IMG/VR virus record: IMGVR_UViG_2541047861_000012
Span: 1 to 19,841 of that record
Source of the DNA: a virus
Taxonomy: Duplodnaviria > Heunggongvirae > Uroviricota > Caudoviricetes
DNA: 19,841 bases
Strand: one strand, 5' to 3'
Shown: positions 6,688 to 10,717 of the stretch, piece after piece
Numbering within the stretch: position 1 is the first letter of the stretch
Layout: each line of letters opens with the position of its first letter
Position numbers and translations under genes: made by a program
Notes under the pieces: generated by a model
Database searches by the model: none
What the model was told of the DNA's origin: nothing
Seen by the model: the letters and a program-made list of their open reading frames with translations, nothing else

Positions 6688-6709
6688 TTATTGCATGGAG
6701 AATATTAAG

Positions 6710-6967
6710 ATGCAGCAGTATCACTATCCACTGGAAGACGGATTTACCGAAAGGATTCACACGCCGGGAGGCGTCAGGTCACTGGTGGAGGGATCGCACT
6801 TGATGAAATTACTCCGGGATCTCGATAAGGATGGATTTAATGTCGATGGCCCACTTGCCGAACTGACTGCACTGATTAACTACGTCACCAGCTCACAGAT
6901 GTCTATGCAGGATCTGCAAACACATCTCGACTATTGTGCCGAACAATTACGAAAACAAACCAGATAA
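6710..6967 (+). CDS. small stand-alone homologue of the antirepressor C-terminal module
   Basis: GGAG at 6697-6700, 9 nt before ATG 6710 (the in-frame ATG at 6695 has no SD); 85 aa; SHLMKLLRDLDKDGFNVDGPLAELTALINYV...MQDLQTHLDY aligns with the shared C-terminus of 7283-7978 and 8987-9925 (SLLMNLLNQLQEDGHDVSGAAAELTTMFCYIV...LRDIQTHAEY). Confidence 0.55.
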   Translation: MQQYHYPLEDGFTERIHTPGGVRSLVEGSHLMKLLRDLDKDGFNVDGPLAELTALINYVTSSQMSMQDLQTHLDYCAEQLRKQTR

Positions 6968-6997
6968 GATTTGAAATTACCAATAGGAGTGCTTATA

Positions 6998-7014
6998 TTT
7001 ACCTTTGCGGTAAA
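6998..7014. promoter_or_regulatory. operator-like palindrome TTTACC-N5-GGTAAA (copy 1)
   Basis: TTTACC (6998-7003), TTTGC, GGTAAA (7009-7014), nested inside a longer inverted repeat GGAGTGC (6986-6992) / GCACTCC (7023-7029). Identical half-sites recur at 8151-8167. Confidence 0.3.
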
Positions 7015-7105
7015 TTTACATCGCACTCCTCTTGTGCCATAGTAATCGGGCACTGGCAAAATCCAGTGCCGGGATTGGCGTCCCGGATTACTAAAAGGCG
7101 CATTC

Positions 7106-7125
7106 ACCGCGCAAGCGGTTTTTTT
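7106..7125 (+). terminator. weak rho-independent terminator in the leader of the Bro-N antirepressor gene
   Basis: Short stem ACCGC (7106-7110) / GCGGT (7115-7119), loop GCAA, then a T-run to 7125; preceded by hairpins at 7049-7070 and 7069-7086 that share bases. Confidence 0.3.
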
Positions 7126-7282
7126 ATGCGTATAGCACGGCCACATTCGTATTATGGTGGGCTGTGTGGGGGCACCGAAAGGTGCGCCGGGTCCTTTTAG
7201 CCGGTTACGCCAACCCTGCACAGTTCACCACCAACCGATTGGCGTCGGTAGTGGTGATTAACCAGACTAAAAGGTAACCACT

Positions 7283-7978
7283 ATGACAGCTACAAAAAGC
7301 ACGTCCATTTTTTCTTTCGAATCCCAAGCCGATATACGGGTAATCGTCATTAATGGTGAGCCATGGTTTATCGCTTCAGATGTTTGTCGGGCTATAGGCA
7401 TAGCAAACCATCGAGATGCTGTTCGAAAACTTGATGATGATGAGAAGGGCGTCGCTTCAACCGACACCCCTGGCGGTGAGCAAGAATCGATCATCATCTC
7501 CGAGTCAGGCCTCTACACACTGATCCTCCGCTGCCGCGACGCAGTGACACCAGGCACTATCCCCTACCGCTTTCGTAAATGGGTTACAGGTGAGGTTCTT
7601 CCTCAGATCCGCCGCACCGGAAGTTACATTAAAAACTCGCTCCCGCAGGAAGAACGCATAAAGATGGTTGCCGACCAGGTAGCCAACGCCACAGCATCAG
7701 CAGTGATGCAGGCAATGAAGATAGAGAACAAAACCTACAGTGCCCCGCTGAAGCCCGGCTACCGCAGTTTGATTCACTCGCCGTCTGGTGTTCTCGGCCT
7801 GACGGAGAACTCACTGCTGATGAATTTGCTGAACCAGTTACAGGAAGACGGGCATGACGTATCGGGCGCGGCGGCGGAACTGACCACCATGTTCTGCTAC
7901 ATCGTCGGTGTGAGTAAATGCCTGCGTGATATCCAGACTCACGCGGAGTACATCAACGACAAAGCAGGATTCTTCTGA
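7283..7978 (+). CDS. antirepressor-like protein (Bro-N N-terminal domain plus shared antirepressor C-terminal module)
   Basis: AAGG about 8 nt upstream of ATG 7283; Bro-N signature FESQADIRVIVINGEPWFIASDVCRAIG...ESGLYTLILRCRDAVTPGTIPYRFRKWVTGEVLPQIRRTG; last 77 residues identical to those of 8987-9925. Confidence 0.8.
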   Translation: MTATKSTSIFSFESQADIRVIVINGEPWFIASDVCRAIGIANHRDAVRKLDDDEKGVASTDTPGGEQESIIISESGLYTLILRCRDAVTPGTIPYRFRKWVTGEVLPQIRRTGSYIKNSLPQEERIKMVADQVANATASAVMQAMKIENKTYSAPLKPGYRSLIHSPSGVLGLTENSLLMNLLNQLQEDGHDVSGAAAELTTMFCYIVGVSKCLRDIQTHAEYINDKAGFF

Positions 7979-8206: not shown

Positions 8207-8842
8207 ATGCCACAACAACTGCTGAATCCGGCAAAGGTAACTGAGGTTTTCGCTCATCTGAACGAAACTCCAGACAACCGCGCCCTGTATTCAGAGTTAG
8301 TGAACGGCAACGATGTCACATCTGATGTCAAAGGCGTTTCTCTGGCTCCTGGATACCGCGTTGTCCGTGTAGACGATCGTAAGAAAGGCGAGATTCCACA
8401 GGCGCACTTTGAACTGTCATTGATAAATGACCTCACCGAAGAGGTAGTGTATTACAATCGTGTCATTATCCAGCCTGACAGCTATCTTAACTGCCGTCCT
8501 GTCACGCAGATATTGGTATGGAGAACCCAGAAGCCTAAGCATCGTGCTGTGCTTCATGATTTCGCTGGCATCATCTTCATGAACTACCTCTTGGAACGGT
8601 ACGATATCATCGTGTCTGATCGCAACCAGACTCATGAAGGCATGTCGTTCTGGCAGGCTCGCATGTATGACGCACTGGAACTTGGCCTCCATCTCTATGG
8701 TTACGACATGATGACATGCGAACTTATAGAGATGAATAACGAGGAAGAACTTGAGAAAGGTGAAACCTGGTTGTGGGGTGATGCGGAAAACTTCCAAAAC
8801 AGATTGGCCATAATTTCAAAGCATAAGCTGCCAATAAAATAG
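8207..8842 (+). CDS. hypothetical protein, 211 aa, no recognisable domain (orphan moron between the two antirepressor genes)
   Basis: ATG 8207 with GAGG SD 6 nt upstream; uninterrupted 211-codon ORF; no TM segment or signal peptide; own strong terminator at 8851-8871; lies inside the segment bracketed by the 256-bp inverted repeat. Confidence 0.7.
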   Translation: MPQQLLNPAKVTEVFAHLNETPDNRALYSELVNGNDVTSDVKGVSLAPGYRVVRVDDRKKGEIPQAHFELSLINDLTEEVVYYNRVIIQPDSYLNCRPVTQILVWRTQKPKHRAVLHDFAGIIFMNYLLERYDIIVSDRNQTHEGMSFWQARMYDALELGLHLYGYDMMTCELIEMNNEEELEKGETWLWGDAENFQNRLAIISKHKLPIK

Positions 8843-8850
8843 TTCTTTAA

Positions 8851-8871
8851 GCCCGCGCCGCGGGCTTTTTT
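8851..8871 (+). terminator. rho-independent terminator of gene 8207-8842
   Basis: GC-rich hairpin GCCCGCG...CGCGGGC (8851-8865) followed by T6 (8866-8871). Confidence 0.7.
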
Positions 8872-8963: not shown

Positions 8964-9220
8964 CACGTCCCTGTGCCGCCGTTCTGTCAGAAGAACCCTG
9001 CCTTGTCGTTGATGTATTCCGCGTGCGTCTGGATATCACGCAGGCATTTGCTCACACCAACGATGTAGCAGAACATGGTGGTCAGCTCCGCCGCCGCGCC
9101 CGATACATCGTGCCCGTCTTCCTGTAACTGGTTCAGCAGATTCATCAGCAGTGAGTTCTCCGTCAGGCCGAGAACACCCGACGGCGAATGAATCAGACTG
9201 CGGTAGCCTGGCTTCAATGG
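8964..9220. repeat. inverted repeat copy B (3' end of gene 8987-9925 plus about 23 bp)
   Basis: Partner of 7745-8000; see copy A. Confidence 0.85.
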
Positions 9221-9925
9221 ATAACCATAACATTTTGTCTGTGTTTTAATTGCCTCACGAAGCGCATCTAACATCTTGACTGCCACTTCATCATTCTCTG
9301 ATGCAGATCCAGCAGGGAGATACTCCCCTTCAAGCGGAACCCGAGCAACAAGAGACAACGCTTCGGCAAATTGATCTTCACCAATTTCTTTGTACGAACA
9401 GCCAAAATGAGATTTCAGTGACGACCACATGGTGATCATCGCCTTAGCCTGTTTTTCTTTTGGCAGAGACTGACCGCGACTCATGACGAGTTGTTTAATG
9501 GCTTCCTGCTGTTCAGTTGTTATTTTACCCGGCAACGCCTTTTTAGCTTTGCGTGGGTTAACCACATGGCCTTTAGTCCAGTACTCGTAGAGCACATCGT
9601 CACACTCTTCCTGATACTGGATTACCTTGTCGCGGATTTCAGGGCGGACTTTGTTAGGGCTGATGCTGTTCAACCAAGCTGCCAATTTTCGTAAAGCCAT
9701 ACAAATCATGGCTTGCACCCCACCGGCAGAAGGTATGGTGATTTCCACCATACCCTTCGAGAAGCGTTGAGAAATCTTCTTATGTTGAGATTTCCAGTCT
9801 AGCCCCATTCCCTCAACGATAGGTTTCATTGGGGTATACGGTTCGCCGTTGTGATTGACAACATAAAGCTCTGCGCCGTGGAATGGCACGTTGATAGTAG
9901 ATACTGCTGTTGCTATACTCGTCAT
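8987..9925 (-). CDS. ant: antirepressor (Ant-like; AntA/P22-Ant-type N-terminal domain plus shared C-terminal module)
   Basis: 312 aa; follows the arc-like gene on the same strand after a 72-bp spacer; N-terminal region INVPFHGAELYVVNHNGEPYTPMKPIVEGMGLDWKSQHKKI resembles phage antirepressor N-terminal domains; C-terminal 77 aa identical to 7283-7978. The symbol is given by position and domain analogy to P22 ant. Confidence 0.8.
   Translation of the reverse strand: MTSIATAVSTINVPFHGAELYVVNHNGEPYTPMKPIVEGMGLDWKSQHKKISQRFSKGMVEITIPSAGGVQAMICMALRKLAAWLNSISPNKVRPEIRDKVIQYQEECDDVLYEYWTKGHVVNPRKAKKALPGKITTEQQEAIKQLVMSRGQSLPKEKQAKAMITMWSSLKSHFGCSYKEIGEDQFAEALSLVARVPLEGEYLPAGSASENDEVAVKMLDALREAIKTQTKCYGYPLKPGYRSLIHSPSGVLGLTENSLLMNLLNQLQEDGHDVSGAAAELTTMFCYIVGVSKCLRDIQTHAEYINDKAGFF
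9891..9919 (+). promoter_or_regulatory. candidate sigma70 promoter for an antisense (sar-like) RNA
   Basis: -35 TTGATA (9891-9896), 17-bp spacer, -10 TATACT (9914-9919); predicted start near 9926, i.e. opposite the ant start codon (9923-9925). Confidence 0.4.
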
Positions 9926-9999
9926 GTCGTTAATTCCTATACGTAGTTTTACGATACTGAAGCCCTGACGGTCTGGCCACCGTGGGGCTTCGCTGTTTT
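9926..9999 (+). ncRNA. predicted sar-like antisense RNA covering the arc-ant intercistronic region and ant ribosome-binding site
   Basis: Transcript predicted from promoter 9891-9919; ends at stem GAAGCCC (9959-9965) / GGGCTTC (9985-9991) with inner stem ACGG/CCGT, followed by GCUGUUUUA (9992-10000). About 70 nt, same size and topology as P22 sar RNA. Confidence 0.35.
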
Positions 10000-10165
10000 A
10001 TGCCACGCTATTCTTCTCACCAGTGAGTCCATACACTTTCCTCAGCTGATAGATAATCTCTGTATTGAACTTTCGGCATTCTTTTTCGCCATTTCTTTCA
10101 ATAGCTAACTTCACATCGTCCGGAAAACGAACTCGTCGTTGACACATCTCTTTTGCTTTTTGCAT
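9998..10165 (-). CDS. arc: Arc-like ribbon-helix-helix repressor
   Basis: AAGGAG SD 7 nt upstream of ATG 10165 (the longer ORF from 10186 lacks an SD); 55 aa MQKAKEMCQRRVRFPDDVKLAIERNGEKECRKFNTEIIYQLRKVY... matches the Arc/MetJ RHH pattern (compare P22 Arc RWPREV...NGRSVNSEIYQRV); first gene of an arc-ant operon. Confidence 0.8.
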   Translation of the reverse strand: MQKAKEMCQRRVRFPDDVKLAIERNGEKECRKFNTEIIYQLRKVYGLTGEKNSVA

Positions 10166-10179
10166 TTCATATCTCCTTA

Positions 10180-10248
10180 GCCCCACCGTGGGGCAAAATA
10201 ATTGTCACACCGTGCGTCATTGATGTCAAGCACACGGTGAGGCATACT
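10180..10248. promoter_or_regulatory. immI-type control region: overlapping divergent promoters with repeated CACCGTG/CACGGTG operator heptads
   Basis: Near-palindrome GCCCCACCGTGGGGC (10180-10194); CACCGTG at 10208-10214; CACGGTG at 10233-10239; a fourth copy GCCACCGTGGGGC at 9976-9988. Minus-strand promoter: -35 TTGACA (complement of 10224-10229), -10 GACAAT (complement of 10201-10206). Plus-strand promoter: -35 TTGATG (10220-10225), -10 CATACT (10243-10248). The heptad core matches the CCACGGTGG core I recall for the P22 Mnt operator. Confidence 0.55.
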
Positions 10249-10285
10249 TCAATCATTGCAAGTAACTCAATATTTGGTGAAGAAC

Positions 10286-10717
10286 ATGAGCAGAGAAGAT
10301 CCACAACTAAGGATCAGACTTCCCGTCGAAGTAAAAGAAAAAATAGAAATTTCTGCAAAAGCCAATAAGCGATCAATGAACGCTGAAATAGTACAACGTC
10401 TTGACACCAGCTTTCTGAAAGATATTCATGAAGATGACGTAATTTCTGCTTATGAAGCAAAAATCATTGCAAACAATGCACGACATGAAATATCAAATAT
10501 TATTTTCAAAAGAACCTTTAATGAAATTAATAAGAAAATAACACTTGGACATACAAGTTTTTATATAAACCTTAATGACCTTGAACTGGAATCACTTGCA
10601 GATAATGATTACCAGATCATCTTTGAAAAAACATTTAATAGGCTCAATGAACTAGGTTACATCATCTGTGAAAACTCATGGGATGCAGATGGTTTTGGAA
10701 TTGAAATACCTGAATAG
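10286..10717 (+). CDS. mnt: Mnt-like ribbon-helix-helix repressor with a novel C-terminal extension (chimeric)
   Basis: ATG 10286 preceded by GGTGA (the ORF track begins at TTG 10256); N-terminus MSREDPQLRIRLPVEVKEKIEISAKANKRSMNAEIVQRL closely parallels P22 Mnt (ARDDPHFNFRMPMEVREKLKFRAEANGRSMNSELLQIV); 143 aa versus 83 aa for Mnt; the extra acidic C-terminal part lies in the AT-rich block. Confidence 0.75.
   Translation: MSREDPQLRIRLPVEVKEKIEISAKANKRSMNAEIVQRLDTSFLKDIHEDDVISAYEAKIIANNARHEISNIIFKRTFNEINKKITLGHTSFYINLNDLELESLADNDYQIIFEKTFNRLNELGYIICENSWDADGFGIEIPE

What the first reader, a model, noticed from the sequence alone, without database searches (positions are those of the whole stretch)
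9891..10000. Predicted sar-like antisense RNA across the ant ribosome-binding site
A near-consensus plus-strand promoter (TTGATA, 17 bp, TATACT) sits inside the 5' end of ant and points away from it. Its predicted transcript of about 70 nt is complementary to the ant start and the arc-ant spacer, and ends at a stem-loop plus U-run at the arc stop codon. This is the arrangement of P22 sar RNA, which post-transcriptionally represses ant. The hairpin loop also contains the fourth CACCGTG operator heptad (9976-9988).
Basis: partly seen in the sequence, partly recalled or inferred. Interest (0 to 1): 0.5.

Follow-up and report, generated by a model that had tools for sequence, protein, structure and literature searches.

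The report
P22-type sar antisense RNA gene
This is an unannotated copy of the well-known phage P22 "sar" antisense RNA in an E. coli prophage, most likely blocking translation of the antirepressor Ant; the call is correct but ordinary, and the extra "operator" in its hairpin looks coincidental.

Summary
TTGATA (9891-9896), a 17-nt spacer and TG-extended TATACT (9914-9919) lie on the + strand inside codons 3-12 of ant (8987-9925, -). They point at the arc-ant spacer.

The predicted ~74-nt transcript (G9926 to the U-run at 9996-9999, overlapping the arc stop codon) matches Rfam sar (RF00262) over its full length, at 44.8 bits against a gathering score of 43. It also aligns with the annotated P22 Psar/sar: the same TTGCTATACT -10 region, the same CATG junction and the same terminator arms.

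About 45 distinct sar-like sequences next to ant homologues in Enterobacterales share a two-hairpin fold. Compensatory changes occur in 15 of 21 pairs. G·U pairs outnumber A·C pairs 202 to 16, so the fold is selected on the sar strand. An extended -10 sits in fixed register in these loci and is absent from ant genes without sar.

The window is a TL-2011b-like (phiV10-related) prophage carrying a diverged immI module. Neither GenBank nor RefSeq annotates the RNA.

The "fourth operator heptad" is present in the sequence. However, it is a single-base polymorphism on a hairpin variant that also occurs with unrelated operators, so it is probably coincidental.

Verdict: a new member of a known kind, of low interest. 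Transcription and repression are inferred, not shown.

The parts
9891..9896 (+). Psar-like -35 hexamer TTGATA, inside ant codons 10-12
   Evidence: TTGATA or TTGATT is found at the same distance in most sar-positive loci. It is closer to consensus than the P22 hexamer GTGTTA at the aligned position.
9911..9919 (+). Extended -10, TGC TATACT, encoded by ant codons 3-5 (Ser-Ile-Ala)
   Evidence: The block TTGCTATACT is identical in the window, P22, TL-2011b and CUS-3. TGnTAnAnT ends 6 nt (3 nt in a few loci) before the end of CAT in nearly all sar-positive loci, and is absent from ant genes without sar.
9926..9999 (+). Predicted sar-like antisense RNA, about 74 nt. The 5' end at G9926 is placed by homology with P22 sar; the 3' end falls in the U-run.
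   Evidence: Rfam RF00262 matches 9927-9994 at 44.8 bits (gathering score 43), model positions 1-68 of 68. My own covariance model R1 matches 9926-10000 at 61.1 bits, E 1e-10, the only match in the window. It is identical to P22 sar in 50 of 77 aligned columns and to the CUS-3 copy in 61 of 76.
9926..9955 (+). 5' hairpin: stem GUCGU/ACGAU with a large loop that carries UUCCU (9934-9938), the complement of the ant Shine-Dalgarno sequence
   Evidence: Fold. For helix 1, 6 of 7 pairs show changes on both sides across 51 distinct sequences. UUCC or UCUC sits in the loop of essentially all relatives.
9958..9992 (+). Terminator hairpin: 14 pairs with one bulged G, loop CUGGCC, about -21 kcal/mol
   Evidence: For helix 2, 9 of 14 pairs show changes on both sides and 96.8% of cells are paired. 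RNAalifold on an independent MAFFT alignment gives 8 of 12 pairs with compensatory changes.
9993..10000 (+). Terminator tail CUGUUUUA. The U-run 9996-9999 overlaps the arc stop codon on the other strand.
   Evidence: Relatives have comparable tails, such as GCTGTTTTT, AACGTTTTT and AACTTT.
9978..9984 (.). CACCGTG heptad, part of the 12-mer 9977-9988 that is identical to 10183-10194. It lies in the 3' arm of the terminator hairpin and is probably coincidental.
   Evidence: Searches confirm presence. Searches show it is polymorphic (G in 11 and T in 6 of 17 contigs with the window-type module). The T form of the hairpin occurs with many unrelated arc-side contexts.
8987..9925 (-). ant (antirepressor, 312 aa), the target gene. 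ATG is the complement of 9923-9925 and the Shine-Dalgarno AGGAA is the complement of 9934-9938.
   Evidence: Pfam P22_AR_N, E 5.9e-45. PHROG anti-repressor Ant. 39% identical to P22 Ant.
9998..10165 (-). arc-like ribbon-helix-helix gene (55 aa), upstream of ant in the same operon
   Evidence: PHROG Arc-like repressor, E 3.4e-5. 33% identical to P22 Arc over 40 aa. The Pfam Arc match is only E 0.11, below threshold.
10201..10229 (-). Pant-like promoter (TTGACA, 17 nt, GACAAT, with TG) that would make the arc-ant mRNA. It is convergent with Psar.
   Evidence: It has the same position relative to arc and the palindrome as the annotated P22 Pant and O-mnt.
10180..10194 (.). Palindrome GCCCCACCGTGGGGC at about +1 of Pant. 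This is the Mnt-operator position, and it shares the core CCACSGTGG with the P22 O-mnt.
   Evidence: P22 has GGTCCACGGTGGACC at the annotated mnt operator.
10286..10717 (+). mnt-like ribbon-helix-helix repressor gene (143 aa), divergent from arc-ant
   Evidence: Pfam Arc domain, E 1.1e-14. 32% identical to P22 Mnt. phrog_1388 matches over the full length.

Best explanation
This is a homologue of the phage P22 sar gene inside a diverged immI (mnt / arc-ant) module. The module is carried by a TL-2011b-like E. coli prophage.

Proposed mechanism:
1. A sigma-70 promoter with an extended -10 lies within codons 3-12 of ant and fires away from ant.
2. It makes an RNA of about 74 nt. The RNA starts at G9926, the base next to the ant ATG, and stops at the hairpin and U-run that overlap the arc stop codon.
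3. The RNA folds into two hairpins. The loop of the first displays UUCCU, the complement of the ant Shine-Dalgarno sequence.
4. Because it is encoded opposite the arc-ant spacer, it is perfectly complementary to the ant leader of the arc-ant mRNA made from the convergent Pant-like promoter.
5. Pairing hides the ant ribosome-binding site and keeps Ant synthesis low, while leaving arc translation alone.

Shown here: the sequence elements, their homology to the characterised P22 element, the covarying fold on this strand, and the conserved promoter.

Inferred, not shown: that the RNA is made, its exact ends, and that it represses Ant translation.
For: - Rfam sar (RF00262) matches 9927-9994 on the + strand over its full length, at 44.8 bits against a gathering score of 43, E 2.3e-6.
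- The P22 record annotates sar, its promoter and its terminator in the same relative positions. The alignment shows the identical TTGCTATACT -10 block, the CATG junction and the terminator arms GAAGCCCTGAC / TGGGGCTTC.
- The promoter matches 10 of 12 positions and has an upstream TG.
- The predicted fold has two hairpins, z-score -2.35.
- A covariance model built from 25 relatives finds 53 matches in 98 sources and exactly one in the window.
- On that alignment 91.8% of cells pair, against about 40% in slid controls, and 15 of 21 pairs change on both sides.
- RNAalifold on a MAFFT alignment that was not fitted to any structure supports the terminator, with 8 of 12 pairs compensatory.
- G·U cells number 202 against 16 A·C cells, so the fold is kept on the sar strand and not on the mRNA strand.
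- The extended -10 sits in fixed register in sar-positive loci even though the Ant N-terminal peptides differ. It is absent from ant genes without sar, which also lack this N-terminal extension.
- The flanking genes are ant, arc-like and mnt-like.
- The upstream + strand gene has its own terminator at 8849-8867, so read-through is not the source of a + strand RNA here.
[quoted passage not shown] It was detected by small-RNA sequencing during P22 infection (PMC13397905).
Against: - No expression data exist for this locus or for TL-2011b.
- The Rfam score is only 1.8 bits above the gathering threshold.
- The terminator stem has a bulged G and only four consecutive U, and the simple terminator scan did not list it.
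- The 5' hairpin is weak on its own, about -2.3 kcal/mol.
- The proteins of the module are only 32-39% identical to those of P22, so regulatory details may differ.
- The covariation counts were made on an alignment fitted to the model, which leans towards the structure.
- RefSeq starts ant at GTG 9889. If that were the true start, the RNA would not cover the ribosome-binding site. The conserved Shine-Dalgarno sequence and ATG, and the P22 ant start, argue for ATG 9925.
Confidence: 0.85

Rival explanations
1. The hairpin DNA is, in addition or instead, a fourth binding site for the Mnt-like or Arc-like repressor. A repressor bound between arc and ant could block or loop Pant transcription.
For: The 12-mer CCACCGTGGGGC at 9977-9988 is identical to the right part of the palindrome at Pant +1 (10183-10194). 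Four of the five CACSGTG heptads in the 19.8-kb window lie within 262 bp, where 1.8 are expected in the whole window. The core CCACSGTGG is also the core of the annotated P22 mnt operator. Two further lineages (L011, L179) combine this hairpin variant with a CCCCACCGTGGGG operator.
Against: Of 17 IMG/VR contigs with the same arc/mnt module and the same three promoter heptads, 6 have CACCGTT in the hairpin. The hairpin variant GACGGTCTRGCCACCGTTGGGCTTC occurs with at least 9 other arc-side contexts that have no CCACSGTGG site within the next 420 nt, or the shorter stretch held for a few loci. Two lineages with the CCCCACGGTGGGG operator (L005 and the L130 group) have quite different hairpins. 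P22 has no such site in its sar hairpin. The left half of the site (GGCCAC) departs from the palindrome. The match is therefore one base change on a pre-existing, widespread hairpin whose TGGGGC is fixed by the terminator.
Confidence: 0.12
2. The promoter-like sequence is a by-product of the Ant N-terminal codons. The hairpin then acts only on the arc-ant mRNA, as a stabiliser, processing site or attenuator, and no antisense RNA is made.
For: The promoter match is not above chance by itself. The hexamers lie in coding sequence. The complementary hairpin would also form in the mRNA.
Against: G·U pairs, which exist only on the + strand, outnumber A·C pairs 202 to 16. The U-run follows the hairpin only on the + strand. 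The extended -10 keeps its exact register across divergent N-terminal peptides and is absent, along with the extra codons, from ant genes that lack the hairpins. The homologous P22 element is a demonstrated transcript (PMC13397905).
Confidence: 0.05
3. The hairpin is the terminator of a longer + strand transcript that comes from the upstream gene (8207-8842), not of a short RNA with its own promoter.
For: The upstream gene is on the + strand and converges on ant.
Against: That gene has its own strong terminator-like hairpin with a T-run at 8849-8867, and ant has one at 8936-8919 on the other strand. A read-through transcript would need to run about 1 kb antisense through ant.
Confidence: 0.03

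Closest known systems
sar RNA of Salmonella phage P22 (Rfam RF00262; immI region)
   Same: It occupies the same place: antisense to the arc-ant spacer, with its 5' end next to the ant ATG and its 3' end at the arc stop codon. It has the same TTGCTATACT extended -10 inside the first ant codons, the same two-hairpin fold and the same outer terminator arms. It has the same neighbours, mnt, arc and ant, with an Mnt-type palindrome at Pant +1.
   Different: Only 50 of 77 aligned positions are identical. The -35 is closer to consensus (TTGATA against GTGTTA). The inner terminator stem and loop differ, with a compensatory U-A to G-C change, a bulged G and a 6-nt loop. The tail is GCUGUUUU instead of AACUUU. 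The proteins are 32-39% identical, and Mnt is 143 aa rather than 83 aa. The host phage is TL-2011b-like (related to phiV10), not a P22-like Lederbergvirus.
Unannotated sar-like sequence of E. coli phage CUS-3 (inside its 'bsq2 boundary sequence')
   Same: The ant 5' end, promoter and 5' hairpin are nearly identical (96% over 9700-9972; 61 of 76 positions for the RNA). It passes the Rfam gathering score at 84.6 bits.
   Different: Similarity ends inside the terminator hairpin at about 9972. The CUS-3 inner stem and tail are of the P22 type. No arc gene is annotated there (PMC2629481 notes the apparent lack of arc).
c4 antisense RNA of phages P1/P7, and IsrK of Gifsy-type prophages
   Same: These are also small phage RNAs that keep an antirepressor gene silent. 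Copies of both families lie 2.7 kb away in this window, at 7050-7235, in front of a second antirepressor gene.
   Different: The sequences and folds are unrelated. From general knowledge of P1, c4 is encoded upstream on the same strand as its target and is not a true cis-antisense RNA.
OOP RNA of phage lambda
   Same: It is a short cis-antisense RNA of a temperate phage, with its own promoter and an intrinsic terminator, acting on a lysis-lysogeny regulator (PMC3134472).
   Different: It overlaps the 3' end of cII rather than a ribosome-binding site. There is no sequence relationship.

Membership tests
sar RNA (Rfam RF00262; P22 immI antisense RNA) | Sequence and structure match to the family covariance model at or above the gathering score | tested here: met
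   44.8 bits against a gathering score of 43, E 2.3e-6, model positions 1-68 of 68, + strand 9927-9994. This is only a narrow pass. P22 scores 97.8 and CUS-3 scores 84.6.
sar RNA (Rfam RF00262; P22 immI antisense RNA) | Encoded antisense to the arc-ant intercistronic region and covering the ant ribosome-binding site | tested here: met
   ant ATG is the complement of 9923-9925, the Shine-Dalgarno sequence is the complement of 9934-9938, and the arc stop codon is the complement of 9998-10000. The predicted RNA spans 9926-9999.
sar RNA (Rfam RF00262; P22 immI antisense RNA) | Own promoter inside the 5' end of ant, reading away from ant | tested here: met
   TTGATA, 17 nt, TATACT with an upstream TG. 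The -10 block is identical to the annotated P22 Psar and is conserved in register in sar-positive loci only. Promoter activity itself was not tested.
sar RNA (Rfam RF00262; P22 immI antisense RNA) | Two stem-loops, the second being an intrinsic terminator followed by U residues | tested here: met
   Fold. Covariation in both helices and strand asymmetry of G·U pairs. Caveat: the stem has a bulge, only four U run consecutively, and the simple terminator scan did not list it.
sar RNA (Rfam RF00262; P22 immI antisense RNA) | Part of an immI-type module with mnt divergent from arc-ant | tested here: met
   Pfam P22_AR_N for ant and the Arc domain for the mnt-like gene. The arc-like gene matches by PHROG and BLASTP to P22 Arc. 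The Pant-like promoter and the Mnt-type palindrome are in the P22 positions.
sar RNA (Rfam RF00262; P22 immI antisense RNA) | A transcript of about 68-69 nt is made and represses Ant synthesis after transcription | not testable with these tools
   There are no expression data. This needs a northern blot, RNA-seq and reporter fusions.
Mnt/Arc-type operator (the 'fourth heptad' in the hairpin) | Sequence match to the operator at the Pant promoter | tested here: met
   The 12-mer CCACCGTGGGGC is identical at 9977-9988 and 10183-10194.
Mnt/Arc-type operator (the 'fourth heptad' in the hairpin) | Conserved in the closest relatives that keep the same repressors and promoter operators | tested here: not met
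   6 of 17 IMG/VR contigs with the window-type module have CACCGTT in the hairpin while keeping all three promoter heptads.
Mnt/Arc-type operator (the 'fourth heptad' in the hairpin) | The hairpin sequence changes together with the operator type across lineages | tested here: not met
   The same hairpin variant occurs with at least 9 arc-side contexts that lack the operator. Lineages with the operator (L005, the L130 group) have other hairpins.
Mnt/Arc-type operator (the 'fourth heptad' in the hairpin) | Specific binding by the repressor protein | not testable with these tools
   This needs a gel-shift or footprint experiment.

The most novel reading that the evidence does not exclude
In the subset of TL-2011b-type prophages that carry G at 9984, the sar terminator hairpin may have become a real second binding site for the Mnt-like repressor. 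One 35-bp stretch would then work both as an RNA terminator and as a DNA operator between arc and ant. Because the site is palindromic, the same 12 nt would also let sar pair with the first 12 nt of the arc-ant mRNA.
Probability: 0.1. Interest if true: 0.5.

Novelty: new member of a known kind. Interest (0 to 1): 0.2.

Why it matters
The practical value is mainly for annotation. This regulatory RNA is missing from both the GenBank record of phage TL-2011b and the RefSeq annotation of E. coli genomes with the identical sequence. RefSeq also starts ant 36 nt too far downstream, which hides the arrangement.

The analysis also shows three smaller things:
- The P22-type immI module, with its antisense RNA, has moved into a TL-2011b-like (phiV10-related) prophage. 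That prophage already carries a c4/IsrK-type RNA in front of a second antirepressor gene.
- sar-like RNAs are much more widespread in Enterobacterales than the narrow Rfam model detects.
- The first dozen codons of Ant exist largely to hold the sar promoter.

None of this changes how antirepressor control is understood.

Tried and rejected
- Fourth operator in the hairpin: I tested it against relatives and rejected it as probably coincidental.
- Gene conversion between the operator and the hairpin: in L078-L081 both the central base of the operator and the hairpin base differ from the window, which suggested this. I dropped the idea because the representative L164 of the T-form, window-type group combines the window's central C in the operator with the T form of the hairpin.
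- A second target of sar elsewhere in the window, for example the leader of the second antirepressor gene at 7283: short-word BLAST found nothing beyond the 12-mer at 10183-10194.
- The hairpin as terminator of the upstream + strand gene: rejected, because that gene has its own terminator at 8849-8867.
- Pfam on the arc-like ORF gave only a sub-threshold Arc match (E 0.11). Its identity rests on PHROG and a pairwise match to P22 Arc.
- The simple terminator scan did not list the sar hairpin, probably because of its bulge.
- Schaefer and McClure 1997 (PMC1369469), on the structure of sar, is not held in the library. A full-text search for TL-2011b listed no title or abstract that concerns this region; I did not open those papers.
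- MAFFT alone did not align the variable 5' hairpin. A covariance model with a structure I supplied was needed.

Full report
**What is in the sequence**

On the + strand, TTGATA (9891-9896), a 17-nt spacer and TATACT (9914-9919, with TG just upstream) form a promoter-like site matching 10 of 12 positions. It lies inside the first codons of a 312-aa ORF on the - strand (8987-9925), which Pfam assigns to P22_AR_N at E 5.9e-45.

- The ant start codon is the complement of 9923-9925.
- Its Shine-Dalgarno sequence AGGAA is the complement of 9934-9938.
- Downstream of the promoter the + strand folds into two hairpins, 9926-9955 and 9958-9992, followed by GCUGUUUUA.
- The T-run 9996-9999 overlaps the stop codon (complement of 9998-10000) of a 55-aa arc-like ORF (9998-10165, -).

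The promoter match alone is not above chance: 2 sites were found per kb against 2.1 expected.

**Identity**

A scan of the whole window against Rfam gives a full-length match to sar (RF00262) at 9927-9994 on the + strand. The score is 44.8 bits against a gathering score of 43, E 2.3e-6.

The P22 GenBank record annotates sar, its promoter and its terminator in exactly the corresponding places. There the RNA's 5' end is the base before the ant ATG and its 3' end lies at the arc stop codon.

Aligning the two regions shows an identical TTGCTATACT block, an identical CATG junction and identical outer terminator arms (GAAGCCCTGAC / TGGGGCTTC).

- By this homology the window's RNA starts at G9926. 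It would cover the Shine-Dalgarno sequence and spacer but probably not the AUG itself.
- Overall identity to P22 sar is 50 of 77 aligned columns. Identity to the unannotated copy in E. coli phage CUS-3 is 61 of 76.
- The flanking proteins are diverged immI proteins: Ant is 39% identical, the arc-like protein 33% and the mnt-like protein 32% identical to their P22 counterparts.
- A Pant-like promoter (10229-10201, -) and a palindrome GCCCCACCGTGGGGC (10180-10194) occupy the positions of P22 Pant and O-mnt. The P22 operator has the same core, CCACGGTGG.

**Conservation and covariation**

Loci encoding relatives of the Ant N-terminal domain were fetched from species-representative genomes and from IMG/VR. 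About 45 distinct sequences upstream of ant in Escherichia, Salmonella, Klebsiella, Erwinia, Yersinia, Proteus, Providencia, Xenorhabdus, Photorhabdus and others have the same layout.

- RNAalifold on a plain MAFFT alignment supports the terminator, with 8 of 12 pairs showing compensatory changes.
- A covariance model built with both hairpins finds 53 matches in 98 sources and exactly one in the window, at 9926-10000 with 61.1 bits.
- On the resulting alignment 91.8% of cells pair, against about 40% when partners are slid. Fifteen of 21 pairs change on both sides. This alignment was fitted to the model, so it leans towards the structure.
- G·U cells, which pair only on the sar strand, number 202. 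A·C cells, which would pair only on the mRNA strand, number 16. The fold is therefore maintained on the antisense strand.

The promoter is conserved too. Nearly all sar-positive loci have TGnTAnAnT ending 6 nt (3 nt in a few) before the end of CAT, although the Ant N-terminal peptides differ. Ant genes without the hairpins lack both the element and the extra N-terminal codons. The Pfam domain begins at residue 12 of Ant, so the promoter sits in an N-terminal extension that precedes the conserved domain.

**Alternatives for a + strand RNA**

The upstream + strand gene (8207-8842) has its own hairpin and T-run at 8849-8867, and ant has one at 8936-8919 on the - strand. Read-through is therefore an unlikely source. 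On the - strand the hairpin is not followed by a U-run.

**Most likely mechanism**

As in P22, the RNA would pair with the ant leader of the arc-ant mRNA and hide the ribosome-binding site. [quoted passage not shown] It was detected again by small-RNA sequencing during infection (PMC13397905).

The UUCCU in the loop of the first hairpin is the anti-Shine-Dalgarno sequence. Psar and Pant are convergent, with predicted start sites about 270 nt apart, so transcriptional interference may add to the effect; that is inference. Transcription, the RNA ends and repression were not and cannot be tested here.

**The 'fourth operator heptad'**

CACCGTG is at 9978-9984, mostly in the 3' arm of the hairpin rather than in the loop. 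The 12-mer CCACCGTGGGGC is identical at 9977-9988 and 10183-10194. Four of the five heptads in the window cluster within 262 bp.

The comparative data argue against a function:

- Of 17 IMG/VR contigs with the same arc/mnt module and the same three promoter heptads, 11 have G and 6 have T at the position of 9984.
- The hairpin variant GACGGTCTRGCCACCGTTGGGCTTC occurs in 34 contigs. These include at least 9 other arc-side contexts with no CCACSGTGG site within the next 420 nt, or the shorter stretch held for a few loci.
- Two lineages that do have a CCCCACGGTGGGG operator carry different hairpins.
- Only L011 and L179 combine both features.

The exact match is thus one base change on a widespread hairpin whose TGGGGC is fixed by the terminator. 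I give a real second operator about 10-12%.

**Genomic setting**

The window is about 97% identical, over 78% of its length, to Escherichia phage TL-2011b, and shares further parts with phiV10-type phages. The sar region is 100% identical to the chromosome of E. coli 2015C-4498.

- Among 50,697 phage records, only TL-2011b holds most of 9700-10400.
- 38 of 5,426 complete E. coli genomes hold most of 9850-10300. 190 genomes hold at least part of it, in many of the sampled hits the ant 5' end together with sar.
- Neither the TL-2011b record nor RefSeq annotates the RNA.
- RefSeq starts ant at GTG 9889.
- Similarity to CUS-3 ends at about 9972, inside the terminator hairpin. The sar region therefore behaves as a mosaic joint.

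**Verdict**

This is an ordinary, unannotated member of the known sar family, in an unusual host phage and with a narrow Rfam pass. The operator remark is true as sequence but is probably a coincidence. Interest is low.

Noticed in passing
window 7050-7125 and 7150-7235 (+), with ORF 7283-7978 (+): Rfam isrK (77.9 bits) and C4 antisense RNA (77.7 bits) lie in tandem. Promoter-like sites precede them at 6971-6999 and 7015-7043, and a second antirepressor gene follows (PHROG anti-repressor Ant). This prophage therefore carries two antirepressor genes, each paired with a different known small-RNA family.
   Followed up: partly
window 6695-6967 (+): A 90-aa ORF consists only of the domain (phrog_450 / phrog_15539) that also ends both Ant proteins. 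It is in effect a stand-alone antirepressor C-terminal domain.
   Followed up: no
loci L004-L148 (for example L121 1428-1500, L007 1426-1498, L148 1428-1500): The Rfam sar model is narrow. Of 20 loci with a clear sar-like element, only P22 and CUS-3 pass the gathering score. A model built here finds 53 matches with covariation in both hairpins. The family extends to Erwinia, Yersinia, Proteus, Providencia, Xenorhabdus and Photorhabdus prophages.
   Followed up: partly
L030 656-728 (Morganella morganii). Also L026 659-721, L022 345-416, L032 302-371: Second sar-like matches lie about 0.8-1.1 kb from the ant-linked position in these loci. In L030 the element sits directly in front of a different 251-aa ORF whose first codons (MSNLAV...) again hold a TGCTAAATT -10. 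This suggests the promoter-plus-RNA cassette can be attached to other genes.
   Followed up: partly
window 9887-9925 (-): RefSeq (PGAP) starts ant at GTG 9889, 36 nt downstream of the ATG at 9925, which has the Shine-Dalgarno sequence and matches the P22 start. The TL-2011b record uses a still longer ORF. The RefSeq start removes the codons that contain Psar.
   Followed up: partly
window 9791 and about 9972: These are mosaic breakpoints. Similarity to TL-2011b begins at 9791, inside ant. Similarity to CUS-3 ends at about 9972, inside the sar terminator hairpin, within what the CUS-3 record calls a 'boundary sequence'.
   Followed up: partly
window 10286-10717 (+): The Mnt-like repressor is 143 aa, against 83 aa in P22. 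Its C-terminal part is longer and is not annotated in Pfam (full-length match to phrog_1388, function unknown). Its N-terminal DNA-reading residues differ from those of P22 Mnt, in line with the different outer bases of the operator.
   Followed up: no
L058 1424-1471 and 1200-1260: A contig binned as an Armatimonadia MAG carries an enterobacterial-type ant with a sar-like hairpin and three CCACSGTGG sites. This may reflect mis-binning or a broad host range for the module.
   Followed up: no
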